Virus record (IMG/VR): IMGVR_UViG_2711768009_000006
DNA from: a virus
Taxonomy: Duplodnaviria > Heunggongvirae > Uroviricota > Caudoviricetes
DNA: 45,689 bases
Direction: 5' to 3' (one strand)
Shown here: positions 7,835 through 20,486 of the stretch, piece by piece
Layout of the letters: the number at the start of each line of letters is the position of its first letter
How positions within the stretch are numbered: the stretch's first letter is position 1
The notes under the pieces: generated by a model
The model's input: only the letters and a program-made list of their open reading frames with translations
Database searches by the model: none
Told to the model about the DNA's origin: nothing
Translations under genes and position numbers: made by a program

Positions 7835-8800
7835 TTAATTATCAGTAGATTGTTCCTCTAGTAACAACTCAATTCTGCTTAGTATTTCTTTAGATATTTT
7901 GCGGCTATCAATTTTTATAGTTACAAAATTACCTTTATATCTGGCCGTGATCCCTTCCCCATATTTTTTCTCGTCTTTTGTTTTTTCCTCGCCGCCAACC
8001 AGAACAGAGTCAGATAATATTTGTATAATCCGTGAAGCTTCTAAATCCTCGCCGTTTTTTTTAATTGCCAGAAGATGATGAGCAGCATTGCTCATGGCAG
8101 CCATGTTTTTTTTGTAAACCTTAAACAAAGAATCTCCAGCACGAGCTGACAGTTCTCCTGGATGATTGAAGATAGCTAATATATCTTTTGGTAGACCAGC
8201 TGTATTAATACAGCGAGTGATAATATTTCTATCTATATTTTCAGCCTCGGCTAATGCTTTAACGTTACCATCAAAGTCATTTAGCTTGCGTAAGTATCTC
8301 TTTCCTCTTTCGTATGCACTAATAGGCCTATAATCGTTACCAATTTGGGATAACCAATGCATCTGTTCATCGTCGAGATCAGCAATTAAGACGCGATAGT
8401 CACATCCTGTTAATATCGCTGCTTTTCTTCTACGTGAGCCGTCAGCGACTTCAACGATTCCAGATACTTTTCTGGCGAAAGCTGGATTTTGTTGTCCAGA
8501 CGTTAGAAAAGATGGGATTAAATCGGCTAGAGAGGATTCATTTAATAAATCTTGATCGCGTTCATTACCTAGCCATACCATTGTTGCCATTTCAACTTTA
8601 TCTGCGGGAATTGTCTCTAACTTAAAGTTAACATTACGTCCGCATACTGGCAAAGTTATGCTGTTACCGGTTAATGAACTCAGTTGACGTTTTAAATCAC
8701 CAACCATAGGTGATACGGGCTGATGTTCAGGGGCATGATGATTATTACTCATAATGCGATTAATATCTGGAGCATTTTTTAGAAGAGAGCGCTGTTTCAT
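7835..8800 (-). CDS. sopB: ParB-family partition protein SopB
   Basis: 321-aa ORF immediately downstream of and overlapping the ParA gene; size and sequence character resemble F/N15 SopB. Confidence 0.85.
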   Translation of the reverse strand: MKQRSLLKNAPDINRIMSNNHHAPEHQPVSPMVGDLKRQLSSLTGNSITLPVCGRNVNFKLETIPADKVEMATMVWLGNERDQDLLNESSLADLIPSFLTSGQQNPAFARKVSGIVEVADGSRRRKAAILTGCDYRVLIADLDDEQMHWLSQIGNDYRPISAYERGKRYLRKLNDFDGNVKALAEAENIDRNIITRCINTAGLPKDILAIFNHPGELSARAGDSLFKVYKKNMAAMSNAAHHLLAIKKNGEDLEASRIIQILSDSVLVGGEEKTKDEKKYGEGITARYKGNFVTIKIDSRKISKEILSRIELLLEEQSTDN

Positions 8801-9966
8801 TATTCGTTCTCCCAGCGAGGTTTTATTAGATCATCAAAAATTTCTCGGCAAACAGGGTCCCATATAGAAACAGCATTTCTCCATGCATTCAATGTTGAAC
8901 GTTGGTTTGCTGCTTGTTCAAATACTGTTCTCATTTTTATCTGGCCTTTACCTACTTCATCGGTAACGCGTACAACCTGACGTAATACCATTGATCCCCA
9001 TGTATTTCTTATTTGTTCTTCCATCCATCGTGATTGATTCCCTGTAGTGATACTATATTTAGTCAGAAGTAAGCGAACGGTTGGCTCAAATCCACCTAGG
9101 TCAACGCTTTCCAATAGATCGAGAAGCATTGTGAAAAACTGTAGAACAGAAGCGTAATCAAATAATTCTGCAGGTGTAGCAACAACAATAACGTCAGCGG
9201 CACAAACAACGTTAATGGTTCCTGTACCGAGGTTCGGAGCACTATCTATAACGATAACATCGTAGTTATCCCAAACTGATTCAATAGCTGCGCGCAGCAT
9301 AAGGTGTGGAGGATGAGGCAATTTACCCTGAGCATGATATTGCATGAGATCTGTTTCTATACGATGTAAAGCTAGGCAGCTAGGGATAATGTCTAGCCCA
9401 GGCCAACATGTTGGCTTTATAGCATATTCAGCGTTATCGCGTTCTCCTAAGTAAAATGGCAGTAAAGTATCCTCGGCATGGATATGTAAATCAGGAACAT
9501 AACCGTGATACATAGAGGCCGTGCCTTGAGGATCGTTACCTTCAACCAAAAGAACACGATGACCTTGTAATGCTAACCATTGAGCTTGATGTACCGCAGA
9601 CGATGTTTTATAAACGCCGCCTTTGTGTGACATAACGGCAAGCACAACAGGGTTTTTATCTTGTGGTCGTTGGTTTGGGTTGCCAAAAACTGCTCGCATA
9701 CTGTTGATTTGATCTATGGTATAACCAGCACGACGTTCAATTCTTCCTCTCATTTCAAAGTCAGGTGCAGGTAAACGCCCGCTCTTCTCAGCATCTCTAA
9801 TTGCTTGAGGAGTTACACCAATTAAATCTGCTACTTCAGTTATACCCCATCGGCGGGTGATACGCCGAGCTTCAGGACTATCATCACCGAATTGAGCGAT
9901 AGCAATTGCTTGGGTCATTTCTTGACCTCTCGTAACACAATCTTGCAATAACTTTTTCAAAGACAT
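8800..9966 (-). CDS. sopA: ParA-family partition ATPase SopA
   Basis: 388-aa ORF; deviant Walker A KGGVYKT; long stretches recalled as near-identical to F-plasmid SopA (e.g. AHKGGVYKT, LVEGNDPQGTASMYHG, KPTCWPGLDIIPSCLALHRIE). Confidence 0.9.
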   Translation of the reverse strand: MSLKKLLQDCVTRGQEMTQAIAIAQFGDDSPEARRITRRWGITEVADLIGVTPQAIRDAEKSGRLPAPDFEMRGRIERRAGYTIDQINSMRAVFGNPNQRPQDKNPVVLAVMSHKGGVYKTSSAVHQAQWLALQGHRVLLVEGNDPQGTASMYHGYVPDLHIHAEDTLLPFYLGERDNAEYAIKPTCWPGLDIIPSCLALHRIETDLMQYHAQGKLPHPPHLMLRAAIESVWDNYDVIVIDSAPNLGTGTINVVCAADVIVVATPAELFDYASVLQFFTMLLDLLESVDLGGFEPTVRLLLTKYSITTGNQSRWMEEQIRNTWGSMVLRQVVRVTDEVGKGQIKMRTVFEQAANQRSTLNAWRNAVSIWDPVCREIFDDLIKPRWENE

Positions 9967-10313: not shown

Positions 10314-10337
10314 NNNNNNNNNNNNNNNNNNNNNNNN
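10314..10337. other. Assembly gap or masked bases (24 N)
   Basis: Run of 24 n characters immediately left of the telO palindrome. Confidence 0.99.
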
Positions 10338-10361
10338 CCCATTATACGCGCGTATAATGGG
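10338..10361. other. telO-type telomere resolution palindrome (protelomerase target)
   Basis: Perfect 24-bp palindrome CCCATTATACGCGCGTATAATGGG, which contains the recalled N15 telO core CCATTATACGCGCGTATAATGG; about 180 bp upstream of telN. The expected left flanking arm is replaced by the N run. Confidence 0.75.
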
Positions 10362-10540
10362 GAATTATGTGCTGATTTTTAGAACAAAGTCAAGGAACAA
10401 ATTTTAACGTTCCGACATTGTGTTTTTGTTTATTATCCGTTATTATGTTCTGTTAGTTTGTGGCTAAGTTAACGCGTTATTAGTTATCTTATTCTCAAAT
10501 TGTGTTACGATAATCAGAGCTGATAATCAGGAGAGGAAAG

Positions 10541-12430
10541 ATGAGCAAAGTAAAAATCGGTGAATTAATAAACTCACTTGTTAGCGATGTTGAGTCAATA
10601 GATAACTCTGACCGTCCTCAAGGGGAAAAAACAAAAAAAATAAAGGCTGTTGCATTAAAATTTAAAAATGCATTATTTAATGATAAGCGAAAGTTTAGGG
10701 GGAAAGGATTAGAAAAAAGAATTACAGCCAACACATTCAATGCCTATATGAGCAGGGCCAGAAAACGGTTTGATGATAAACTTCATCATAGCTTTGAAAA
10801 AAATATACATCGCCTATCTGAAAAGTATCCTTTATATAATGAGGAGCTATTGTCATGGCTTTCTCTACCTGCTGCCGATATTCGCCAGAGAATGTCAGCT
10901 TTACAGGCAAAATTAAAATTAATTCTCCCTTTATCAGAAGATTTATCTAATATCAGAATTGGTGATAACAAAAGTCATAATAAGTTATTAAAATTATCAA
11001 ATAAATATAAAGAGTGGCAATTCGCCATATCTGATTTAACTAGCGATAACTGGAAAGATAAGCGCGATTATTTATATAAATTACTACAGCAAGGATCTGC
11101 CTTACTTGAAGAGTTGAATCAGCTAAAAGTTAACCATGAGATTCTCTATCATCTTCAACTAAGCCCTGCCGAACGCGCATCTATCCAGCAACGATGGGCG
11201 GACGTTCTGCACAATAAGAAACGTAACGTGGTGGTCATTGATTACCCTAAATATATGCAAGCTATTTACGATATTATAAATAGCCCTGCTACATTAAATA
11301 ATCTAAACACTCGTTCAGGTATGGCTCCTTTGGCATTTGCACTTGCTGCATTGTCAGGAAGACGAATGATTGAGATTATGTATCAAGGTACATTTACTGT
11401 TTCTGGTAAGTATACCGTTGATTTTTTAGGCCAAGCAAAAAAAAGAACTTCTGATGATATAACCAGAAAAATATATACATTATGCGAAGCAAAAACATTT
11501 GTTTATTTAATAAATGTACTTCGCTCATGCCCAGCAGCATCTGATTTTGATGATGTCGTTAAAGGTTATGGAGATAACGACACACGCTCTGAAAACGGAC
11601 GGATTAATGCCATATTAGCAAAGGCTTTTAACCCGTGGGTCAAATCATTTTTCAAAGATGACCGCCGTGTTTATAAAGATAGTCGTGCTATTTATGCCCG
11701 TATTGCGTATGAAATGTTTTTCCGCGTAGATCCTCGTTGGAAAAACGTAGATGAGGATGTTTTCTTTATGGAAATTTTAGGCCATGACGATGAAAACACT
11801 CAATTACACTATAAGCAATTCAAGCTGGCCAACTTCTCAAAGACATGGAGGCCAAATACTGGAAACGAAAATACCAGGCTGGAAGCATTGCAGCAGCTTG
11901 ATGACGAAATGCCAGGATTCGCCAGAGGAGATGCCGGGGTTCGTCTGCATAACACAGTTAAGCAGCTGGTAGAGCATGACCCCTCTATAAAAATCACGAA
12001 CAGCACTCTAAGAGCATTCAAATTTAGCCCTACAATGATTAGTCGATACCTGGAATTTGCTGCTGATGCTCTGGGGCAATTTGTTGGCGAAAATGGACAA
12101 TGGCAGCTGAAAATAGATTCTCCAGAAATCGTTATGCCTGACGAAGAAGAGCTGGAAGCAATACCTGAACAGACGGATGAATTATCAGAGGATGACGATC
12201 TGGATGACGACGAAATTGAGATAGAGGAAGAGGAAGAGAGCGTAGAAGAACAGCAACCGCCCGCGCCTTCTTCACCTGTATCTAAGCCGGTATTTAAGCC
12301 TGTGAGAAATATTGGTGATGGCTCATACGTTGTTGAGTTTCATTATAATGGCCAGAATTATGCTTGGTCCGGCAGTGCAAACAGCCCTATATCAGCAATG
12401 CAGTTAGCATGGCTGACATATTTCGGATAA
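10541..12430 (+). CDS. telN: Protelomerase TelN (telomere resolvase)
   Basis: 629-aa ORF with SD AGGAGAGG; sequence (MSKVKIGELIN..., RSGMAPLAFALA..., EILGHDDENTQLHYKQFKLANFS...) matches recalled N15 TelN; adjacent to telO; acidic C-terminal tail. Confidence 0.9.
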   Translation: MSKVKIGELINSLVSDVESIDNSDRPQGEKTKKIKAVALKFKNALFNDKRKFRGKGLEKRITANTFNAYMSRARKRFDDKLHHSFEKNIHRLSEKYPLYNEELLSWLSLPAADIRQRMSALQAKLKLILPLSEDLSNIRIGDNKSHNKLLKLSNKYKEWQFAISDLTSDNWKDKRDYLYKLLQQGSALLEELNQLKVNHEILYHLQLSPAERASIQQRWADVLHNKKRNVVVIDYPKYMQAIYDIINSPATLNNLNTRSGMAPLAFALAALSGRRMIEIMYQGTFTVSGKYTVDFLGQAKKRTSDDITRKIYTLCEAKTFVYLINVLRSCPAASDFDDVVKGYGDNDTRSENGRINAILAKAFNPWVKSFFKDDRRVYKDSRAIYARIAYEMFFRVDPRWKNVDEDVFFMEILGHDDENTQLHYKQFKLANFSKTWRPNTGNENTRLEALQQLDDEMPGFARGDAGVRLHNTVKQLVEHDPSIKITNSTLRAFKFSPTMISRYLEFAADALGQFVGENGQWQLKIDSPEIVMPDEEELEAIPEQTDELSEDDDLDDDEIEIEEEEESVEEQQPPAPSSPVSKPVFKPVRNIGDGSYVVEFHYNGQNYAWSGSANSPISAMQLAWLTYFG

Positions 12431-12475: not shown

Positions 12476-12640
12476 CTACCTCGCCTGCCCCTTTTCGTCC
12501 TCATCCAACTTTCTGATGGCCGTAGAATCAATACCCGCCGCCATACACACATCAGATGCAACAAACCACGGTTCGCCGTTAATCATCACTACACGAACCT
12601 GATGCTCTTCCTGAAAGGAAAAGACTGCTAACGCGCTCAT
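12476..12640 (-). CDS. Short Bro-N-like domain protein (54 aa, probably truncated)
   Basis: Below the ORF-track size cutoff; translation MSALAVFSFQEEHQVRVVMINGEPWFVASDVCMAAGIDSTAIRKLDEDEKGQAR resembles the N-terminal half of Bro-N/antirepressor domains; start ATG overlaps the upstream stop (ATGA). Confidence 0.45.
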   Translation of the reverse strand: MSALAVFSFQEEHQVRVVMINGEPWFVASDVCMAAGIDSTAIRKLDEDEKGQAR

Positions 12641-12870
12641 TCAGCCTCCTTATCGTGCAGCAATTGCGACGAGAGCGATGCTGAATAACCCTGTGCTTCG
12701 TGTGTTAGCTCACACGCAATTTGAAGGAGTTTCCCTGCTTCTGAGAGATAAATCGACGCCTCACAACTGGAGATTGTCCGATGGGCTGATGATACGAGCG
12801 CATAGACCTGAGCCAGACGTTCATCCAACGATTCCAGCAGGCCAACAGTGTTCATTTTTACCTGATTCAT
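12637..12870 (-). CDS. Hypothetical protein (77 aa)
   Basis: ORF in the track; ATGA start/stop coupling with ORFs on both sides. Confidence 0.45.
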   Translation of the reverse strand: MNQVKMNTVGLLESLDERLAQVYALVSSAHRTISSCEASIYLSEAGKLLQIACELTHEAQGYSASLSSQLLHDKEAE

Positions 12871-13031
12871 GCAGCCACCTCGCGCACCGGAATACGGGCA
12901 GACAATACCAGGACAAACCGGCTGGCGAACTGGCGACGAGCTTCCCGTTCAGATGACGCGATGGTGGAAAGATGATGGATGTGTGACTTTTTGTCTGTGC
13001 GAACGATTGCCGCAAATTTGAATTTGAACAT
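12867..13031 (-). CDS. Hypothetical small protein (54 aa)
   Basis: Below the ORF-track cutoff; MFKFKFAAIVRTDKKSHIHHLSTIASS...; SD GGAG about 10 nt upstream; its stop overlaps the next start (ATGA). Confidence 0.4.
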   Translation of the reverse strand: MFKFKFAAIVRTDKKSHIHHLSTIASSEREARRQFASRFVLVLSARIPVREVAA

Positions 13032-13193
13032 GGTATGCACTCCGTTTAATTGGTCGTGCTACCACCAGAGTTCCTACGCTCTATATGGCGGTAGCCCAGA
13101 CGGGGGTAGGAATACCGGTAAACGAAGAAACCGGCCAGCTAAAAGCTGCCCCATCTGAGCCACCATAAATTTGGTGTACGCAGATTTTACACA

Positions 13194-13217
13194 CAAAAAA
13201 ACACGCTGGCGCGTGTT
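13194..13217 (-). terminator. Rho-independent terminator ending the minus-strand repA-downstream operon
   Basis: Read on the minus strand: stem AACACGC / GCGTGTT with loop GCCA, followed by a run of 7 U. Confidence 0.6.
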
Positions 13218-13407
13218 GTGCGCTTCATTTACTCGGGTTCCTACGCCCGGCTACGGGATTTACCGTAGCGGAGTAAACTTTACCGTCAAAACGACGCGCA
13301 CGTCAATAATTTGCAAAGACATTTTACCCCGTGACCAGTCACGGGGACAGGTGTTTTTATAGTTTGCTTGAACGAGTGATCAGAAGTTGATCGTTAATCA
13401 AAGGCCA

Positions 13408-13695
13408 TTATTGATTAAGAGATTGGAAATACCTAACTAACTTACCGGCATCATCACATTTTTCTTTATCTTCGTCCTTAACATAGCCGCGACAAAAGGC
13501 TGAATAAAATTTTGCATTTTCAGAAGCAAAAGCAGCCGTCGAAAGGAGCAGCTCTTTGCATGACTCTTTTGATGCAGCATCGGGATTATTTTTACATGCA
13601 AGGTCCGCTGATGAGTTAATAACAGAAATGCTATCTTCCTGGGCATAAACCGCAGCAGAAAAGGCAAAACATAAAACAAAAATAAAACTCTTCAC
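13408..13695 (-). CDS. Small secreted Cys-containing protein with signal peptide
   Basis: GTG start with SD AGGAG 5 nt upstream gives MKSFIFVLCFAFSAAVYA-QEDS (signal peptidase I-like cleavage site); four Cys in the mature part. Confidence 0.55.
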   Translation of the reverse strand: MKSFIFVLCFAFSAAVYAQEDSISVINSSADLACKNNPDAASKESCKELLLSTAAFASENAKFYSAFCRGYVKDEDKEKCDDAGKLVRYFQSLNQ

Positions 13696-13722
13696 TTTAT
13701 CTCCTGTAACAGTCATCACAAT

Positions 13723-14130
13723 TCAATCAACTTTTTTAGCATCAGCCATACGATTCAACCAGAAATCAACAATCGGTTGCTCATCTACAGAATGTTTACC
13801 AGGTATAACTCGCCAGCTATCTTGCGAAAATCTGCCGTACTTACGCGGGAATAGGCCTTTCTTTATCTCCCGCCATGTACTAGGAAAACCATCCACAAAA
13901 GTACCAATTAACAGGAGAGGGACAAAAATCAGAGCTACAAACCATCGTGCAAGAAAGTGTTCAACAACAACATTTTCACCGTTGTAGTAATACGCATACG
14001 CATCCAATATGCGAATTTTCCTTACCTTAAAAATAGCCTTATGCTGATAACGACTTAACTTGATACGAATGTATCCCTTATCCAAAGGGGATTCGTATTT
14101 GTATGATTGAACAGCCATTTTTAACCCCAC
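13723..14130 (-). CDS. Hypothetical membrane protein (135 aa, one predicted TM helix)
   Basis: ORF with hydrophobic segment WFVALIFVPLLLIGTFV; overlaps the upstream gene by 10 nt. Confidence 0.5.
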   Translation of the reverse strand: MGLKMAVQSYKYESPLDKGYIRIKLSRYQHKAIFKVRKIRILDAYAYYYNGENVVVEHFLARWFVALIFVPLLLIGTFVDGFPSTWREIKKGLFPRKYGRFSQDSWRVIPGKHSVDEQPIVDFWLNRMADAKKVD

Positions 14131-14447
14131 TCACCATCAGCAAACAAAGCGTTATACTCTGACAATGGTAGACGGTTGCCCTCGATGTAGAGATTCAGTT
14201 CATACTTCGTCTCCGGGTTTTCCTTGTCGGCTCGTTCCCAACGCTCAGCAGCCTTACGCGCCAATAATTCCACTGCTTTCAGATAATCCTCCGTACGGAA
14301 CCAGCCAAAGATAAGGCCACGATCTGTTACAGCCCAGGCGACCTTTTTTTCTTCCTCCTGGATAGCCCTAATGCGTCGTTCGCATTCATCCCGGCAGAAC
14401 TGCAGCTGACGGTAATCAAGTTTGTCCAAAAATGCAGTAGTAGACAT
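14121..14447 (-). CDS. Hypothetical protein (108 aa)
   Basis: ORF in the repA-downstream operon; no recognised motif. Confidence 0.5.
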   Translation of the reverse strand: MSTTAFLDKLDYRQLQFCRDECERRIRAIQEEEKKVAWAVTDRGLIFGWFRTEDYLKAVELLARKAAERWERADKENPETKYELNLYIEGNRLPLSEYNALFADGEWG

Positions 14448-14451
14448 ATTT

Positions 14452-14643
14452 TTACTCCCCGTTCACCGAAAATTCACGATAGAAACGTTTCCACATACGA
14501 TAAGTCTGCGCAAATTGTTCACCACGAAACATCGCCTTCCTGGCCTTCATGTTTTCCTTGTGAGACTTTCGGTCTATGAACCAAAACCATTGCTGGAACA
14601 CACAAAGCAAGAGACACAAAGATAATATCCACTCATTACCCAT
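14452..14643 (-). CDS. Possible small membrane protein (63 aa)
   Basis: Internal ATG of track ORF 14452..14760, overlapping the repA stop by 8 nt; hydrophobic LSLCLLLCVFQQWFWFI; weak SD. Confidence 0.3.
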   Translation of the reverse strand: MGNEWILSLCLLLCVFQQWFWFIDRKSHKENMKARKAMFRGEQFAQTYRMWKRFYREFSVNGE

Positions 14644-17600
14644 AGAAAGCGCCCTGCTCTTCGTAGCTGCATGAGCTATTCCCCGTAATGTATTCACGTA
14701 ACCGCCGCAGCTCATTGCTGGAAAGGTGATCCATGAACTCTGTGAGGTACAGGGATGCAAACGTCATAGCTATGCTGGCTGATGACCATGATGACATAGT
14801 GGCCAACTCCTCACTGGAAAGCGCACTCATCGCCCAGGACTCAGGTACAGCCACTGGCAACACGGCCAAAGCCTCAGAAATTACTGAATGAGGGGCGTTT
14901 TGAACCTGCTCGTTTGTGGATCGCGTTTTATCATCCATATATATATTGAGATCCAAATCGCGATCCATTTCGATGGCTGTCTTCTCGGCTTTACGCGTTT
15001 TTAGGGTTAGGCCATCTTTCTGACGCTGAACAAGAATATCCAGCATAAATGCCGCTGATTCAGGCTCAACAAAACGCAAGGTTGGACGCTTATCGCCGTC
15101 TCTGCCGCGACGTTTACCTGTTTTAAGGCCAAGAGAGTCGCAAATGTTTTTAAACAACGCTTCCGGCACTTTAGGCTTCCCTTTTGGCGTCATAAAACCA
15201 CCAATGTGCAGAACGTTATTCAACAGGTCACGGCGTTCGGCTGTCATGAGGTTATCTCGAGCGAATTTGAGACGCTCCTGAGTCGCCTCGCCGGTCATAG
15301 TCTCAGGGTTGATACCGCAGTCGATAAAGTACTGCCGGAGAGTTGCTGATTTAAGCGCATAGAAACCGCGCGCCCCGACTTCAACAGTAGGAGTAGCTTT
15401 TACCTTGTGATCGATTATTCCAGGGAATTTAGTTTTAAAGACATCATCAGCCTGCTCGCGAGTCATCGCGGTCACTACAAAATATTGCCACTGTCCCGCC
15501 TGACGGTATGCGTAGGTAAAATTGATGGCTGCTTCTTCCCGGTCGTAACGACGAGCTGTTACCTCATCTAAAAGCATTGTTTCATAGCGGCGAACTTTGT
15601 CTCGAGCACCATCGAAATAGAATTTCAGCGTGCCTTCTTCAACCGGTAGTTTCAGTTCGTTTTCAATATCCCAGCGGACAAGTTTTGCCTGTTCTTCAAG
15701 CGTCAGCGCGCGTTTTTTTAGCAGTTCTTCACGCTCTGATTCTTGTGGAGTTTCTGTATTGAGGTGCAGATCCAGTGTCTGTTCCCACACAATATCCCGC
15801 GCTTCTTTACGCAGATCTTTACCGATATCATTCGCAGCATAATCGGTGGCCAGCGGTGATACCTTATAACCGTCGCTGTGCATGATGCAGATCATGTTGC
15901 TGGCGTAGTCGTTACGCGCAGTCGCTTCAATTGCGGCTGCTTTAATTTTCATCCTGGTAAAGTCGGTATTGGCCACCCCCATTGATATACGGTCGCCATC
16001 GAAAACGACATCCGTAAGTTCACCGTTCATACCTGCGGTAGCAAGCAATGCCTGGGCGAATGCTCGTTCTATTTTTTGCGGGTCAGTTTCACGTTTTGCA
16101 CGAGCTTTATCAAAGCCGATAATAAATTCTTTTGCTGTACGGTCGCGGCGTAGCATTTGCACTGCGTCGCTGGGTACAACTTCACCACAGAACATGCCGA
16201 AATGACGGTCAAAATGTTTTTGCTCAATCGACACGCCGGATGAAATAGACGGGCTATAAATCAGGCCGTCGTATTTTTTGACCATCTTTTTCGGTTGATT
16301 GGTAAATGCTTCAACTTCTGGCTCTGGTTTGTTTTTCTGGTTTACACACAGAAATTTCTTACCAGGAAAATGCATTCTCAGGGTGGCTGTCACATCTTCT
16401 GCAAAGGTGGAGCTGTCGGTGGCCAACATGATTTTTTCGCCATCCGATACAGCTTTCACCACCTCGGTCATGATGCGATCTTTTTCTGTATAAAAAACCC
16501 GGATTGGCTCACCTGTTTCGCGGTTGCGAACATCAACAGGTAATTCAATTACGTGGATCTGCAGCCATGCCGGTAAACCTAGTTCTTCACGGCGTTTCAT
16601 AGCCAGTTCAGCCAGGTCAACCAGTAGATCGTTCGCATCAGCATCCACCATGATTGGGTGTTGTTCCGTTCTGGCCAGCGCGTCAATTAGCGTATTGAAT
16701 ACAGCAACCGGGTTTTCCATAGCCCGACCGGAAAGAACGGCACGTAGCCCTTGTGTGGCCTCGTCAAAGCCAAAATAGTCGTGCTGGCGCATCAACGGTT
16801 GCCAGCAGTTTTTAACAATCGAGTTTATGCAGATGGTCAGTTTACTGGCGTATGGAGCCATTTCCTGATAGCCAGGGTCCTGATAGTGCAGGATATCGGC
16901 TTTTACACCTTTTCCTTCTGTCATCATTTCCCACAGGCCACCAATAAGGGAGACACGGTGAGCAACAGAGATACCACGTTCTGAGCTATGCATTAACGGT
17001 CGTAACAATCCAGTAGATTTGCCGGAACCCATACCAGCACGGACGATGACTATCCCCTGTAGTGATTGCACGTACTTCAGGACATCATCGGTCATTACCG
17101 AAGTTTCAAAACGCTTATAGGTGATATGTTGAGGGCGTTTATTGGGATCAGTTATGCGTTCGCTGAAAGAGCGCGGAGCCTGGGCAATACGGCACTTTTT
17201 ATTCAGGCGACGGGCAATGTGGTCTTTTACCGTAGCGCGATAGATATTTTCCAGTCCCATTTCACGCAGAACGATGCAGAACATGTTAAATAAATCTGAC
17301 GGACTGTTAGGAACCGGACAGGTTAGCATGCCAATATCCACCGCTCTCAGCAGCTCTTTGGCAAAAGTACGACGGTTATCCCGCTTAATTGTCTTCAGGC
17401 GGTTGAGCGTCAGAGATAGCAAATCAGTACCGGTTTTCAGGCGGTTTGCTGTTGCAAATAGTTGACGTGCTGTTTCACGAAGTCCACGTAGTTTGTGCAG
17501 GTCGTTGAAGTCACTGCACTCCATTTGCGGATCGTCTTCAAAAGTTGGATAGACGCAGCGGACATCGTTGAATTTCGATAAGATTTCATAGCCAGTCCGC

Positions 17601-18631
17601 AGGCCGGTATTCCCTTTTCCTTCTGTGGCAGATTTCCGGTCATTATCCAGTGCGCAGGTGATTTTTGCCGCCGGGTACATGTTTACCAGTTGTTCCACAA
17701 CATGAACCATGTTGTTAGCGGATACAGCGACAACCACAGCGTCAAAGCGTTTATCTTTTTTCGTGGCAAGCCAGATGGATGCACCAGTAGCAAAACCTTC
17801 TGTAACAGCGATGTTTTGCGCCCCTTTCAGCTCACCGATAACAAAGCAGGCACCGACGAAATCACCGCTGGTTACTGCGCTGGTCTGGTATTTCCCACCT
17901 TGTTTGTCGATTCGCTGCCAACCCACAATACGACCATCATAACGACCGTCCAGGTGAGCCAGAGGGATAGCCATATATGTGGTTGGCCCCCGGCTCCATT
18001 TCGCACTGTCGTGACTGGTCACGCGACGCACATCACATGAACTAAAAACGTCACGAATACCTTTTTTAATCGCATATGGCCATGAGCCGTCTTCAGCCTG
18101 AGCATGTTCCCACGCGCTGTGGAATGCCAGCCATCCCAGCAAACGTTCATGGTCCATTTGGTTGTTTTTCAGATCATTAATTCGTTTTTGTTCTTCACGG
18201 CGACGACGTGCTTCGGCCTGACGTTCTATTCTTTCCCGTTCTTCTTCTGGTTGTGCGACCACGGTCGCATTATTCCGTTGTTGCTCACGGCGATATTCAG
18301 AAAACAGGAAGGAGAAACCGCTCCATGAGCCAGCATCGCTGCCTTTATGGACGAAGTTAATGAACGGGTAATCAATCCCTTTGCTGTGTTCCAGCCTGGA
18401 GTAAATTTCTACGCGTCCTTTCAGGCTCTTTTCGAGAGCTTCTGGAGATGTTTTATTGTATGAAGAGTAACGCTCAACCCCTCCGCGAGGGTTGAGTTGT
18501 ATGTTGTCGGAACAGGCAGGCCAGTTGATACCAGCCATCTGTGCCAGCTCGGTTAGTTCATCCCGTGCTGCTTCAATTAGCGAGAACGGATCGCTGCCAA
18601 AGCGATCCGCATAGAAATCGTTTAATGTCAT
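14636..18631 (-). CDS. repA: Replication initiator RepA (primase plus helicase multidomain protein)
   Basis: 1331-aa ORF; Walker A AGMGSGKST in the C-terminal half; size and position next to cB match N15 RepA. Confidence 0.93.
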   Translation of the reverse strand: MTLNDFYADRFGSDPFSLIEAARDELTELAQMAGINWPACSDNIQLNPRGGVERYSSYNKTSPEALEKSLKGRVEIYSRLEHSKGIDYPFINFVHKGSDAGSWSGFSFLFSEYRREQQRNNATVVAQPEEERERIERQAEARRRREEQKRINDLKNNQMDHERLLGWLAFHSAWEHAQAEDGSWPYAIKKGIRDVFSSCDVRRVTSHDSAKWSRGPTTYMAIPLAHLDGRYDGRIVGWQRIDKQGGKYQTSAVTSGDFVGACFVIGELKGAQNIAVTEGFATGASIWLATKKDKRFDAVVVAVSANNMVHVVEQLVNMYPAAKITCALDNDRKSATEGKGNTGLRTGYEILSKFNDVRCVYPTFEDDPQMECSDFNDLHKLRGLRETARQLFATANRLKTGTDLLSLTLNRLKTIKRDNRRTFAKELLRAVDIGMLTCPVPNSPSDLFNMFCIVLREMGLENIYRATVKDHIARRLNKKCRIAQAPRSFSERITDPNKRPQHITYKRFETSVMTDDVLKYVQSLQGIVIVRAGMGSGKSTGLLRPLMHSSERGISVAHRVSLIGGLWEMMTEGKGVKADILHYQDPGYQEMAPYASKLTICINSIVKNCWQPLMRQHDYFGFDEATQGLRAVLSGRAMENPVAVFNTLIDALARTEQHPIMVDADANDLLVDLAELAMKRREELGLPAWLQIHVIELPVDVRNRETGEPIRVFYTEKDRIMTEVVKAVSDGEKIMLATDSSTFAEDVTATLRMHFPGKKFLCVNQKNKPEPEVEAFTNQPKKMVKKYDGLIYSPSISSGVSIEQKHFDRHFGMFCGEVVPSDAVQMLRRDRTAKEFIIGFDKARAKRETDPQKIERAFAQALLATAGMNGELTDVVFDGDRISMGVANTDFTRMKIKAAAIEATARNDYASNMICIMHSDGYKVSPLATDYAANDIGKDLRKEARDIVWEQTLDLHLNTETPQESEREELLKKRALTLEEQAKLVRWDIENELKLPVEEGTLKFYFDGARDKVRRYETMLLDEVTARRYDREEAAINFTYAYRQAGQWQYFVVTAMTREQADDVFKTKFPGIIDHKVKATPTVEVGARGFYALKSATLRQYFIDCGINPETMTGEATQERLKFARDNLMTAERRDLLNNVLHIGGFMTPKGKPKVPEALFKNICDSLGLKTGKRRGRDGDKRPTLRFVEPESAAFMLDILVQRQKDGLTLKTRKAEKTAIEMDRDLDLNIYMDDKTRSTNEQVQNAPHSVISEALAVLPVAVPESWAMSALSSEELATMSSWSSASIAMTFASLYLTEFMDHLSSNELRRLREYITGNSSCSYEEQGAFYG
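18254..18269. promoter_or_regulatory. SopB-type centromere-like palindrome TGCGACCACGGTCGCA (inside the repA 5' coding region)
   Basis: 7-bp inverted arms TGCGACC/GGTCGCA with a 2-bp centre; encodes NATVVAQ in RepA; same architecture as the recalled F sopC core TGGGACCACGGTCCCA. Confidence 0.55.
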
Positions 18632-18754
18632 TTTTTAGCCATTCCATGCGAATTATGTTTTTTCGGGTTGAAAAAATCCGCAGGAGCAGCCACAATAAAC
18701 GCATCTTGAATTGACGGAATCCGTCGCGTTACTGTGGCTGCTTCCTGAAAAGGA

Positions 18755-18782
18755 CCCGAGTTTGCCGACTCGGGTTTTTTTT
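18755..18782 (+). terminator. Strong plus-strand rho-independent terminator in the repA upstream region
   Basis: CCCGAGT-ttgccg-ACTCGGG followed by 8 T; no plus-strand coding gene lies upstream. Confidence 0.6.
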
Positions 18783-18876: not shown

Positions 18877-19473
18877 TCATCTACCCTCAACCATGAATGA
18901 TTTGATCGTTCCGACTATTTGGTGAACAAATTCAAGATCGCTTTTCCTGAAGATGGCGCGTTGTGAGTTTGTTCCATCCAGATAGTAATTTTCATCATCA
19001 AAACGGGCCAGGCGCTGGATAGTGATATTTCCTGCAGTATCACGAACCAGAACATCCTCGCCGGGGACCAGTTCCAGCGCAGAATCGACCAGGAGAAAAT
19101 CGCCTGGCTGATAGTTTCCCTGCGTAAGATTGCTGATAGTTAACGCATACACAGTATTGCGCTGGCTGATGAATGGCAGGAATCGCTCAGTATTTGGAAC
19201 CTGTCCCGGCTTCCACTCTTCATCCGGCCCACTTTCAGTTGTGCCAATAACAGGAATGCGATCAGGGTCATATTCTGTCCCATATAGCACCCAATGCACT
19301 GGCTTGCGTAAGCACTTAGCCAGGGCAATACCTATCTCCAGTGACGGCATTACGTCGCCACGTTCTAAGTTTTGGACGCCTGCTATAGAGATATCGACAG
19401 CCTCAGCAACTTCTCGCAACGTCAGCTTCATCTCTAAACGGCGTGCTTTCAGTCGTTCGCCTCGTGTTTTCAT
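18877..19473 (-). CDS. cB: Prophage repressor CB (CI/LexA-like)
   Basis: 198-aa ORF with N-terminal HTH (LTLREVAEAVDISIAGVQNLERG) and a C-terminal domain of CI-like size; divergent from cro with operators between. Confidence 0.88.
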   Translation of the reverse strand: MKTRGERLKARRLEMKLTLREVAEAVDISIAGVQNLERGDVMPSLEIGIALAKCLRKPVHWVLYGTEYDPDRIPVIGTTESGPDEEWKPGQVPNTERFLPFISQRNTVYALTISNLTQGNYQPGDFLLVDSALELVPGEDVLVRDTAGNITIQRLARFDDENYYLDGTNSQRAIFRKSDLEFVHQIVGTIKSFMVEGR

Positions 19474-19495
19474 ACTGTAATCATAAATGATCTTC

Positions 19496-19511
19496 TTATA
19501 GCTGGCTATAA
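19496..19511. promoter_or_regulatory. Putative CB operator O1 (perfect 16-bp palindrome)
   Basis: TTATAGCTGGCTATAA in the cB-cro intergenic region. Confidence 0.6.
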
Positions 19512-19521
19512 AATTTATTTA

Positions 19522-19537
19522 TTATAGCTGGCTTTAA
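19522..19537. promoter_or_regulatory. Putative CB operator O2 (imperfect copy)
   Basis: TTATAGCTGGCTTTAA, 26 bp centre-to-centre from O1; a perfect TATAAT lies at 19553-19558 just before the cro ATG. Confidence 0.55.
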
Positions 19538-19564
19538 TTATTGTTTATTGTTTATAATAACAAC

Positions 19565-19786
19565 ATGAAACCAGAAGAACTTATTCGCCATTTTGGCAGT
19601 GTAGAAAAAGCAGCGGCAGGGGTAGGTGTAACACCCGGAGCTGTTTACCAATGGTTAACCGCTGGAGAGATTCCTTCATTGCGGCAAAGCGATATTGAAG
19701 TTCGTACTGCTTATAAGCTGAAGAGTGACTTTACAACTCGGCGGGTAAAGCAGTCGATTAAGGAGAGTCGTAAGCGTGGAGCTTGA
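19565..19786 (+). CDS. cro: Cro-like transcriptional regulator
   Basis: 73-aa HTH protein (GVGVTPGAVYQWLTAGEIP) divergent from cB. A TATAAT 6 bp upstream with no SD suggests a leaderless or short-leader mRNA; the track's upstream TTG start at 19541 is an alternative. Confidence 0.7.
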   Translation: MKPEELIRHFGSVEKAAAGVGVTPGAVYQWLTAGEIPSLRQSDIEVRTAYKLKSDFTTRRVKQSIKESRKRGA

Positions 19787-20486
19787 GTATATACGCAGCT
19801 GCGTCTCTACGGCATTGGCTGATGTTCATTATCGCCAGCGTGGCATTCTGGAGGTCCAGCTTGAGCAGATGCGTCTCGGTAGATCAGGACGGTTTAACAA
19901 TAAACCAGTCCGGTCAATCAGTGTGGGGGATGATAACTCATACGAAGTGTCCGTTCCTGCTGAGCCGGTTAGATTCCATCAGGGGAAAACATTTAAACAA
20001 TCATCAATGTTGCTCACTGATATTGATTTTCAGAGCGCCAGCTGGCGCAGGGCTATTGGTCAGTTGAATAACGAGGAATCAGCCTGGCTTTATTATTGCT
20101 ACGGATGCAAGCCTGATTACAACAATGATGTGATTGTTTGTCAGTGGTTATGGCTTGATTTTCTGGTTGCTCATTCGGGGGGCGGCTTTAAAAAAATGAA
20201 GGCCTCCACGAAAAAAGCCATGCGGAAATTGATTTATTACGCGGCACAACAGGTTAAATCAGAACTTACGTGTGCTGAGGCAGTTGATGAGAGAGAACAG
20301 GACAGGCATCTGAGTTTTCTACTGAATATATCTATTGATAGCTGGAGACAAGATTATAAAGAACGCTGGCTTTTAATTAAGTCGCGATGTCTGAGCTTAA
20401 ATCGAACCGCATTATTAAATGCGGCGGAGAAGCGCAGTGAAATCATCAAACGCCATCGGGCAGGAAGTGCCATTCTGCCTTTGTAA
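19776..20486 (+). CDS. Putative late-gene regulator (Q-like antiterminator, assigned by synteny only)
   Basis: 236-aa ORF with GTG start overlapping the cro stop; the cB-cro-Q order is known for N15; I recognise no diagnostic motif. Confidence 0.35.
   Translation: MELEYIRSCVSTALADVHYRQRGILEVQLEQMRLGRSGRFNNKPVRSISVGDDNSYEVSVPAEPVRFHQGKTFKQSSMLLTDIDFQSASWRRAIGQLNNEESAWLYYCYGCKPDYNNDVIVCQWLWLDFLVAHSGGGFKKMKASTKKAMRKLIYYAAQQVKSELTCAEAVDEREQDRHLSFLLNISIDSWRQDYKERWLLIKSRCLSLNRTALLNAAEKRSEIIKRHRAGSAILPL

What the first reader, a model, noticed from the sequence alone, without database searches (positions are those of the whole stretch)
13408..14643. Secreted and membrane proteins co-transcribed downstream of repA
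Four small genes follow repA on the same strand with overlapping or abutting boundaries and end at an intrinsic terminator: a possible 63-aa membrane protein, a 108-aa protein, a 135-aa protein with one TM helix, and a 95-aa signal-peptide protein with four Cys. Envelope-targeted accessory genes expressed with the plasmid replication gene are candidates for superinfection exclusion or host modulation.
Basis: partly seen in the sequence, partly recalled or inferred. Interest (0 to 1): 0.45.

Follow-up and report, generated by a model that had tools for sequence, protein, structure and literature searches.

The report
Accessory-gene slot after N15-type repA
The four small genes after the replication gene of this N15-like linear plasmid-phage are real, and the last one, a small exported protein of unknown function, sits where related Klebsiella phages carry bacteriocin and immunity genes; its database label "Spackle" does not hold up.

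Summary
The window is an N15-like (Ravinvirus) telomere phage-plasmid of E. coli. All four ORFs after repA are real: they are tightly packed, show dN/dS of 0.2-0.5, and have diverged homologues elsewhere.

- **orf95** (Sec signal peptide; 77-aa acidic mature protein; three predicted helices; four invariant Cys) is a low-GC cassette, window 13393-13708.
- **The slot.** This cassette occupies a hypervariable slot whose boundary at window ~13392 is shared by N15 and six other related elements. It is the published "telocin:immunity" locus of Klebsiella telomere phages, whose products were detected in lysogens. No toxin gene is present here.
- **Terminator.** The claimed intrinsic terminator is a conserved hairpin without a U-tract.

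The most likely function of orf95 is a periplasmic protective binder (phage exclusion or bacteriocin immunity). This is inferred, not shown. It is an ordinary locus type carrying an uncharacterised cargo family.

The parts
14636..18631 (-). repA (1331 aa), the N15 gene 37-type primase/helicase replication protein; first gene of the unit
   Evidence: ORF listed. Relatives are annotated 'CyRepA1 family plasmid replication protein' or primase. The cB repressor (18877-19473) and a hairpin lie upstream.
14452..14643 (-). orf63: 63-aa protein with an N-terminal TM helix (residues 5-23) and a basic C-terminal tail (pI 9.7); its start overlaps the repA stop (ATGGGTAA)
   Evidence: dN/dS 0.2-0.3. Homologues of 41-55% identity follow repA in Klebsiella and Citrobacter N15-like plasmids and in NAR688. 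No Pfam, PHROG, NCBIfam or PADLOC match.
14121..14447 (-). orf108: 108-aa acidic cytoplasmic protein, homologue of N15 gp35 (phrog_10878)
   Evidence: 64% identical to N15 gp35 and 73% to the K. pneumoniae copy. 73 cluster representatives across Enterobacterales, none named and none with a Pfam domain. Also found in PY54 and in some virulent myoviruses.
   Evidence: W59, L63, G77, P79 and T81 are invariant across seven relatives. Relatives occur after repA in Yersinia P840 and K. pneumoniae, after the DNA polymerase gene in Proteus phage Isfahan, and between the terminase and portal genes in Salmonella CF-SP1. GC is 39.6% against 50.1% for the window. The AF2 model was unusable (pLDDT 40).
13408..13695 (-). 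orf95: exported 95-aa precursor. Signal peptide 13642-13695, mature 77 aa 13411-13641. Acidic (pI 4.8), three predicted helices, Cys at mature positions 16, 28, 50 and 62. Families phrog_26765 and phrog_21025.
   Evidence: Four Cys plus D76, K77 and D82 are invariant in relatives of 34-45% identity. AF2 pLDDT 84.7, three helices. No specific fold match. GC 37.8%. Present in 14 of 5426 complete E. coli genomes, always on plasmids.
13393..13708 (.). Exchangeable cargo cassette holding orf95, within the wider variable region ~13393-14120 that also includes orf131; positional equivalent of the telocin:immunity locus
   Evidence: Homology with N15, YDC107_1, pS142-3, pEA8_3, pHKP0018.4, contig L007 and NAR688 ends at window 13385-13396. 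With pEA8_3 and YDC107_1 it resumes at 13708-13717. The NAR688 gene order comes from PMC12042878.
13376..13392 (-). Conserved boundary motif GATCA-N7-GATCA (CTGATCAG...CTGATCAG in N15) at the cassette junction
   Evidence: Alignment of nine elements. Its function was not tested.
13327..13346 (-).
   Evidence: Missed by the terminator scan because it lacks a U-tract. The central palindrome GTGAC-TG-GTCAC is invariant, but the outer stem is not kept in N15 or Klebsiella.
13084..13306 (-). Start of the next unit, the immA anti-immunity leader: Pa-like promoter (13277-13306), c4 a1/b1 targets (13230-13282), isrK-like RNA with terminator (13196-13269) and C4 antisense RNA (13084-13170)
   Evidence: Promoter scan. 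Rfam hits: C4 73.6 bits (gathering score 45), isrK 62.5 bits (50), c4-a1b1 34.3 bits (below its 46.7).

Best explanation
The region is the distal end of the leftward repA unit of an N15-type telomere phage-plasmid. It has two layers.

(1) Recurring small genes. orf63, orf108 (N15 gp35 family) and orf131 abut or overlap one another and repA, so they are probably translated from the repA transcript. Their role is unknown. Two of them are membrane-anchored.

(2) A hypervariable cargo slot. It lies between those genes and the conserved hairpin and Pa promoter of the anti-immunity locus. This is the same slot that holds telocin (bacteriocin) and immunity cassettes in Klebsiella telomere phages. Here it holds no toxin. 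It holds a low-GC gene, orf95.

Predicted fate and action of orf95. The product is exported by Sec, cleaved after VYA, and probably folds in the periplasm into a small acidic three-helix protein held by two disulfides. The most likely action is that it protects the lysogen by binding an incoming periplasm-transiting protein: a component of a superinfecting phage's entry apparatus, or a periplasm-acting bacteriocin.

Shown: gene structure, coding status, synteny, slot identity, and sequence features predicting export. Inferred: co-transcription, disulfide formation, and the protective binding function.
For: - **Gene packing and ribosome-binding sites:**
- **Purifying selection:**
- **Recurring genes:** orf63, orf108 and orf131 homologues lie in the same order after repA in K. 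pneumoniae pHKP0018.4. orf63 and orf108 homologues follow repA in NAR688. The gp35 family is present in N15, KpLi5 and PY54.
- **Slot identity:** the homology breakpoint at window ~13392 is shared by seven elements, including NAR688, where ImmA and TelA fill the gap. The published NAR688 order is RepA-gp48-gp49-ImmA-TelA-Icd-AntA-AntB-protelomerase, and TelA and ImmA were detected in the lysogen proteome (PMC12042878).
- **Alternative cargoes at the slot:** a Pesticin-domain protein (E 4.5e-45) with a Pim-like secreted protein, a 270-aa lipoprotein, 72-74-aa acidic proteins, and N15 gp33/gp34.
- **orf95 itself:** signal peptide and four Cys; the Cys are invariant across relatives of 34-45% identity; a confident three-helix model; low GC.
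- **orf95 relatives sit at typical moron positions in other siphoviruses:** between tail genes I and J, and between antirepressor genes and the tape-measure gene.
Against: - No experiment or homology links orf95 to any function. Pfam, NCBIfam and PADLOC give nothing significant, and the matching PHROGs are of unknown function.
- Fold searches return only generic helical bundles.
- No promoter was found for orf95 itself. In NAR688, RepA and the two small proteins after it were not detected in lysogens, so lysogenic expression of this operon tail is uncertain.
- orf95 resembles none of the immunity proteins that could be tested: Pim by Pfam, and ImmA, which has four TM helices.
- The disulfide pairing and three-helix topology rest on an AF2 model built from only five sequences.
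Confidence: 0.5

Rival explanations
1. orf95 is a homologue of T4 Spackle (gp61.3) and excludes superinfecting phages by inhibiting their tail-associated lysozyme in the periplasm, as the GenBank record of phage PhiR46_1 implies.
For: - The 94.7% identical protein in PV340565 is annotated 'Spackle exclusion protein'.
- The gross features are similar: a ~95-aa precursor, Sec signal peptide, ~75-aa acidic all-helical mature protein with disulfide(s). T4 Spackle features are taken from PMC7677548.
Against: - BLASTP of orf95 against T4 Spackle gives E = 42.
- The profile comparison aligns only signal-peptide residues 1-16, MKSFIF against MKKFIF, which is probably the source of the label.
- phmmer against all PDB sequences, which include Spackle entries 6X6O, 6XC0 and 6XC1, finds nothing.
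- The matching PHROGs are 'unknown function'.
- The Cys pattern differs: four Cys as two C-x11-C pairs, against one C29-C81 bond in Spackle.
Confidence: 0.04
2. orf95 is an orphan immunity protein. It neutralises a periplasm-acting bacteriocin, such as a muramidase-type telocin or pesticin-like toxin, made by competing strains. The toxin gene was either lost from this slot or never acquired.
For: - It occupies exactly the slot that holds toxin and immunity pairs in Klebsiella telomere phages (PMC12042878).
- The immunity partner of the pesticin-type cargo is likewise a small Sec-exported protein.
- A periplasmic, acidic, disulfide-stabilised protein suits a tight-binding inhibitor.
Against: - No similarity to Pim (PF16765) or any other immunity family.
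- No toxin remnant fits in the 315-bp cassette.
- Distant relatives sit among tail and antirepressor genes of non-telomere phages, with no bacteriocin gene next to them.
- ImmC, ImmD and ImmE could not be compared.
Confidence: 0.15
3. The block is not a defence or envelope module. orf63, orf108 and orf131 are accessory factors of RepA-driven replication or early phage development, for example membrane tethering or control of the replisome. orf95 is a neutral hitch-hiker or acts on host physiology unrelated to competitors.
For: - Synteny and translational coupling with repA.
- The gp35 family is the most widely kept small gene after repA in telomere phages.
- orf131 relatives directly follow a DNA polymerase gene in Proteus phages, and both families occur in virulent phages, which have no lysogen to protect.
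Against: - N15 replaces orf63 with an unrelated soluble gp36 and lacks orf131, while NAR688 lacks orf131, so none of these is essential for RepA function.
- The orf131 relative in Salmonella CF-SP1 lies between the terminase and portal genes, not in a replication module.
- orf95 shows purifying selection (dN/dS 0.20-0.26) and invariant Cys across distant relatives, so it is not neutral.
Confidence: 0.25
4. orf63 is a small membrane toxin or holin-like peptide, acting in post-segregational killing or abortive infection, whose synthesis is coupled to RepA.
For: Its architecture, a short N-terminal TM helix followed by a strongly basic tail (63 aa, pI 9.7), resembles small membrane-active peptides. 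It is conserved in Klebsiella and Citrobacter elements.
Against: - No antisense RNA or antitoxin was identified, and there is no match in PADLOC or any other library.
- Translational coupling to an essential, constitutively needed replication gene is hard to reconcile with a lethal product.
- N15 has an unrelated soluble protein at the same position.
Confidence: 0.06

Closest known systems
Telocin:immunity locus of Klebsiella telomere phages (NAR688 TelA/ImmA; TelB-E; Dunstan et al. 2025, PMC12042878)
   Same: - Same genomic position: after repA and its small downstream genes, and before the Icd/AntA/AntB anti-immunity genes and the protelomerase gene.
- Same conserved boundary at window ~13392.
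- Cargo is exchanged as cassettes and mostly acts on or in the envelope.
- In NAR688 the products are present in lysogens.
   Different: - No toxin gene is present here. The cassette is 315 bp and encodes a single 95-aa exported protein, unrelated to ImmA (four TM helices) or to Pim.
- In that paper's terms this element would be a 'Tel0' phage.
- The E. coli slot contents were not described there.
N15 genes 33-36 (function unknown), downstream of gene 37 repA
   Same: Four small same-strand genes lie between repA and the immA leader, and orf108 is 64% identical to gp35.
   Different: gp36, gp34 and gp33 have no detectable similarity to orf63, orf131 or orf95. N15 gp33 has a TM helix, but BLAST finds no homology.
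T4 Spackle (gp61.3), periplasmic inhibitor of the gp5 tail lysozyme
   Same: A small Sec-exported, acidic, all-helical, disulfide-containing phage protein. It is the model for how a soluble periplasmic protein can exclude superinfecting phage (PMC7677548).
   Different: No sequence or fold relationship. Helix number and Cys pattern differ. Spackle is made by a virulent phage early in infection, not from a prophage cargo slot.
Prophage morons that block superinfection at the envelope (phi80/N15 Cor, T5 Llp, HK97 gp15; recalled from general knowledge, not tested here)
   Same: Small, low-GC, envelope-targeted genes inserted at variable positions, often next to tail genes, as the orf95 relatives P0020 and P0021 are.
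   Different: Those proteins are lipoproteins or membrane proteins with known receptors or targets. orf95 has no lipobox and no TM helix after cleavage, and no own promoter was found for it.

Membership tests
T4 Spackle (gp61.3) family | Detectable sequence homology of the mature domain to Spackle | tested here: not met
   BLASTP E = 42. hhalign aligns only signal-peptide residues 1-16. phmmer against the PDB finds no Spackle chain. No annotated Spackle PHROG was matched.
T4 Spackle (gp61.3) family | Flat five-helix bundle with a single Cys29-Cys81 disulfide (PMC7677548) | tested here: not met
T4 Spackle (gp61.3) family | Sec-dependent export to the periplasm | tested here: met
   Sequence features only: MK, a 13-residue hydrophobic core, VYA|Q, and no lipobox. 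Export was not shown experimentally.
T4 Spackle (gp61.3) family | Binds and inhibits a phage tail lysozyme | not testable with these tools
   This needs a biochemical assay.
Telocin:immunity locus cargo (Klebsiella telomere phages) | Located between the repA-proximal small genes and the icd/antA leader, upstream of the protelomerase gene | tested here: met
   Homology breakpoints are shared with NAR688 and pHKP0018.4. The gene order in NAR688 comes from the paper's supplement.
Telocin:immunity locus cargo (Klebsiella telomere phages) | Encodes a bacteriocin toxin (pore-former or peptidoglycan hydrolase) | tested here: not met
   Only one 95-aa ORF lies in the 315-bp cassette, and none of the four proteins has a toxin domain.
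Telocin:immunity locus cargo (Klebsiella telomere phages) | Encodes a cognate immunity protein related to ImmA-E or Pim | tested here: inconclusive
   No Pim (PF16765) hit for orf95, and it is unlike four-TM ImmA.
N15 gp35 family (phrog_10878) | Full-length sequence homology and position downstream of repA | tested here: met
   orf108 is 64% identical to N15 gp35 over 107 aa, matches phrog_10878 at E 2e-52, and is syntenic in N15, KpLi5, PY54, NAR688 and pHKP0018.4.
phrog_26765 / phrog_21025 (unknown function) | Full-length profile match | tested here: met
   orf95 matches phrog_26765 at E 1e-61. All five family members match phrog_21025, best E 4.8e-9.
Rho-independent terminator | GC-rich stem-loop immediately followed by a U-tract | tested here: not met
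   The stem is present (8 bp, 6 of them G-C), but the tail is UAAAAUGUCUUUG and the consensus scan did not report it. The outer stem is not maintained in N15 or Klebsiella.
Moron (autonomous accessory gene in a prophage) | Own promoter and terminator, and atypical base composition | tested here: inconclusive
   GC is 37.8% against 50.1% for the window, and the gene is exchanged as a cassette. However, no promoter-like site lies upstream of orf95, and the downstream hairpin is atypical.

The most novel reading that the evidence does not exclude
The orf95 family (phrog_26765/21025: Sec-exported, ~75 aa, three helices, two C-x11-C pairs, conserved D-K-x-x-C-x-D motif) may be a previously unrecognised class of soluble periplasmic protection protein carried by temperate siphoviruses. 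It would be a non-homologous functional analogue of T4 Spackle, or an inhibitor of muramidase-type telocins. That would mean the telocin slot of telomere phages exchanges defensive as well as offensive cargo.
Probability: 0.25. Interest if true: 0.55.

Novelty: new member of a known kind. Interest (0 to 1): 0.3.

Why it matters
- **Locus identity.** The analysis ties the E. coli/Shigella N15-like phage-plasmids to the recently described telocin locus of Klebsiella telomere phages. In Escherichia the same recombination-bounded slot carries other, non-toxin cargo that is mostly exported or lipid-anchored.
- **Annotation error.** It flags a misleading public annotation ('Spackle') that seems to rest on signal-peptide similarity only.
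- **A testable protein.** It singles out one small, tractable exported protein family whose target, phage or bacteriocin, could be found with simple plating and binding assays.
- **If orf95 has no phenotype,** the region is just an ordinary stretch of accessory ORFs of unknown function.

Tried and rejected
- **Family libraries.** Pfam, NCBIfam and PADLOC scans of all four proteins gave nothing significant. Weak DUF2385/TIGR02301 hits for orf95 (E ~0.1) were not reproduced by other family members.
- **Word-indexed homologue search for orf95.** It returned almost only frameshifted copies of the same protein. The exhaustive HMMER search was needed to find three true distant members.
- **Spackle hypothesis.** Rejected.
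- **Structure of orf131.** The shallow alignment gave pLDDT 40, so no fold search was attempted.
- **'gp35' in the NAR688 lysogen proteome.** I first wondered whether this was the orf108/N15 gp35 homologue. The supplement shows it is a RelE/ParE toxin, so it is not evidence that orf108 is expressed.
- **orf131 as a replication-module gene.** This idea was weakened by its position between the terminase and portal genes in Salmonella phage CF-SP1.
- **Literature.** Searches found no functional data on N15 genes 33-36 or on PhiR46_1.
Full report
**What the window is.**
- The window carries sopA (8800-9966, - strand), a protelomerase gene (10541-12430, +), a 1331-aa repA (14636-18631, -), and a CI-like cB repressor followed by cro and Q (18877-20486).
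- Megablast finds it 96-98% identical to Escherichia phage PhiR46_1 and YDC107_1 (genus Ravinvirus). It is 95-100% identical to about 29 non-mobilizable E. coli, Shigella, E. albertii and E. fergusonii 'plasmids' of about 46 kb.
- It is therefore an N15-like telomere phage-plasmid. A run of N (10315-10338) sits next to the telomere palindrome.

**Check of the observation.**
- Four ORFs follow repA on the minus strand.
- orf63 (14452-14643) starts inside the repA stop (ATGGGTAA).
- orf108 (14121-14447) starts 4 nt after the orf63 stop and has a GGGGAG Shine-Dalgarno sequence.
- orf131 (13723-14118) has its ATG 2 nt after the orf108 stop.
- orf95 (13408-13695) has a GTG start 24 nt after the orf131 stop, behind an AGGAG.
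- Kyte-Doolittle analysis gives one TM-grade segment in orf63 (residues 5-23) and one in orf131 (60-78). It gives none in orf108 and a signal-peptide-like N-terminus in orf95 (MK-SFIFVLCFAFSAA-VYA|QED). The mature orf95 is 77 aa with four Cys and pI 4.8.
- Among six close relatives, substitutions are concentrated at third codon positions, and pairwise dN/dS is 0.2-0.5 for every ORF. Each ORF also has diverged homologues. All four genes are real.
- The terminator claim is only partly right. A hairpin at 13327-13346 (8 bp) follows orf95, but its tail is UAAAAUGUCUUUG and the scan did not call it.
- In other elements the central palindrome GTGAC-TG-GTCAC is invariant, while the outer stem decays without compensation. 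It may be a protein-binding site as much as a terminator.
- Immediately beyond it begins the next unit, the immA anti-immunity leader. This holds a Pa-like promoter (13277-13306), the c4 a1/b1 targets, an isrK-like RNA with a canonical terminator (13196-13269), and the C4 antisense RNA (13084-13170).

**Two layers in the block.**
- N15 has four genes (33-36) at the same place, but only gp35 is homologous, to orf108 at 64% identity.
- In K. pneumoniae pHKP0018.4 the order after repA is an orf63 homologue (43%), an orf108 homologue (73%) and an orf131 homologue (36%).
- In Klebsiella phage NAR688, orf63 and orf108 homologues follow repA.
- The gp35 family is spread through Enterobacterales telomere phages and occurs in a few virulent myoviruses.
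- orf131 relatives keep the TM segment (W59, L63, G77, P79 and T81 are invariant). They occur after repA in Yersinia P840, right after a DNA polymerase gene in Proteus phages, and between the terminase and portal genes in Salmonella CF-SP1.
- None of these proteins matches Pfam, NCBIfam or PADLOC, and all their PHROGs are of unknown function.
- The first three genes thus recur after repA in several telomere phages, though none is universal. One is cytoplasmic. Two have relatives in phages that never form lysogens.

**The cargo slot.**
- I compared the window by blastn with N15, YDC107_1, pS142-3, E. albertii pEA8_3, pHKP0018.4, metagenomic contig L007 and NAR688. Homology on the immA side always ends at window 13385-13396. 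With pEA8_3 and YDC107_1 it resumes at 13708-13717, the end of orf131.
- orf95 is therefore a cassette of about 315 bp, next to a conserved GATCA-N7-GATCA motif (13376-13392) and the hairpin.
- Its GC content is 37.8% and that of orf131 is 39.6%, against 50.1% for the window.
- Other elements carry different cargo at the slot:
  - a 270-aa lipoprotein (E. albertii pEA8_3);
  - 72-74-aa acidic proteins (YDC107_1, pS142-3);
  - gp33 and gp34 (N15);
  - a Pesticin-domain protein (E 4.5e-45) with a secreted Pim-like protein (pHKP0018.4);
  - ImmA and TelA (NAR688).
- This is the 'telocin:immunity locus' of Dunstan et al. 2025 (PMC12042878). The NAR688 gene order is RepA-gp48-gp49-ImmA-TelA-Icd-AntA-AntB-protelomerase.
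- TelA and ImmA were among only nine phage proteins detected in lysogens. RepA, gp48 and gp49 were not detected. The 'gp35' in that proteome is a RelE/ParE toxin, not the N15 gp35 family.
- The window has no toxin gene. In that paper's terms it is a 'Tel0' element whose slot holds orf95.

**orf95 itself.**
- The word-indexed search found nearly only identical or frameshifted copies.
- The exhaustive search added three genuine relatives of 34-45% identity. In them the signal peptide, all four Cys, D76, K77 and D82 are conserved.
- One relative sits in the same slot of another N15-like contig. One lies between tail genes I and J of a lambda-like tail module. One lies between antirepressor genes and the tape-measure gene. 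These are moron-like positions.
- The gene occurs in 14 of 5426 complete E. coli genomes, always on plasmids. In PLSDB it is found only in Escherichia and Shigella.
- AlphaFold2 on the mature domain gives a confident model (pLDDT 84.7) of three helices: 4-15, 22-53 and 56-75.

**The 'Spackle' label.**
- PhiR46_1 (PV340565) annotates its 94.7% identical protein as 'Spackle exclusion protein'.
- Against T4 Spackle (NC_000866 gene sp), BLASTP gives E = 42.
- The profile comparison aligns only the first 16 residues, MKSFIF against MKKFIF, which is the signal peptide.
- Sequence search of the PDB and both fold searches miss the Spackle structures.
- Spackle has five helices and one disulfide. orf95 is predicted to have three helices and has two C-x11-C pairs.
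- The label should be regarded as an artefact. Spackle remains only a functional analogy.

**How it most likely works.**
- Shown: gene structure, coding status, synteny, slot identity, and sequence features predicting export.
- Inferred: the four genes are read from the repA transcript. N15 repA is controlled by the CB repressor at OL sites, as cited in PMC4488713. That would give low expression in lysogens and higher expression on induction.
- Inferred: orf95 is exported, oxidised by the Dsb system, and acts as a soluble periplasmic binder.
- The slot elsewhere carries weapons and their antidotes that act in the envelope, and the orf95 relatives are morons in tail regions. The best guess is therefore a protective function for the lysogen.
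- My estimates are roughly 0.3 for exclusion of incoming phage and 0.15 for orphan bacteriocin immunity. The rest is spread over host-physiology effects or no phenotype.
- For orf63, orf108 and orf131, a role tied to RepA or early development is at least as likely as an envelope defence role.

**Verdict.**
- The locus type is known (N15 genes 33-36; the telocin locus). The cargo family is uncharacterised and narrowly distributed.
- Interest is modest.

Noticed in passing
window 10315-10362: A run of 24 N lies directly next to the palindrome CCCATTATACGCGCGTATAATGGG (telomere resolution site). The window therefore looks like a linear phage-plasmid whose two ends were joined or permuted in the record, with the junction masked.
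   Followed up: no
window 13084-13306 (- strand): A complete P1/N15-type anti-immunity leader is present: a Pa-like promoter, c4 a1/b1 target sites (34.3 bits, below the gathering score), an isrK-like RNA with terminator (62.5 bits), and the C4 antisense RNA (73.6 bits). It lies upstream of an Icd/AntA-like 57-aa ORF (12867-13040).
   Followed up: partly
window 12476-12640 (- strand): The Bro-N antirepressor (AntC) is truncated to 54 aa. It is 259-264 aa in N15, YDC107_1, NAR688 and contig L007. The same short form is annotated in PhiR46_1 and pS159-3, so this lineage may lack antirepressor-dependent induction.
   Followed up: partly
window 13327-13392 (- strand): The cassette boundary carries a conserved GATCA-N7-GATCA motif (a CTGATCAG direct repeat in N15) and an invariant palindrome GTGAC-TG-GTCAC about 20 nt upstream of the Pa -35 box. 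This may be a recombination hotspot or an operator rather than a terminator.
   Followed up: partly
GenBank PV340565.1 3086-3373 (locus L001): The 'Spackle exclusion protein' annotation of the orf95 orthologue appears to rest on signal-peptide similarity to T4 Spackle only. It could spread to other records through annotation transfer.
   Followed up: yes
L015 4754-6310 (K. pneumoniae pHKP0018.4): The same slot holds a 330-aa Pesticin-domain muramidase (E 4.5e-45) and, on the opposite strand, a 141-aa secreted protein with a sub-threshold Pim (pesticin immunity) match. This looks like a TelB/ImmB-type telocin cassette.
   Followed up: partly
L005 1609-2421 (E. albertii pEA8_3): The slot holds a 270-aa predicted lipoprotein (LLSGC lipobox) with no Pfam or PHROG match. 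This is another uncharacterised envelope cargo.
   Followed up: no
L007 3291-4045: In a metagenomic N15-like contig, about 750 bp with no called gene and only short ORFs (61 aa or less) precedes the orf95 homologue (P0017). Possible explanations are a decayed cargo, an RNA element or a promoter region.
   Followed up: no
window 18747-18782: A strong 16-bp hairpin flanked by A- and T-runs lies between cB and repA, at the position of the stem-loop annotated upstream of repA in N15. The weak Rfam NsiR1 hit there (26.4 bits, below threshold) is probably just this hairpin.
   Followed up: no
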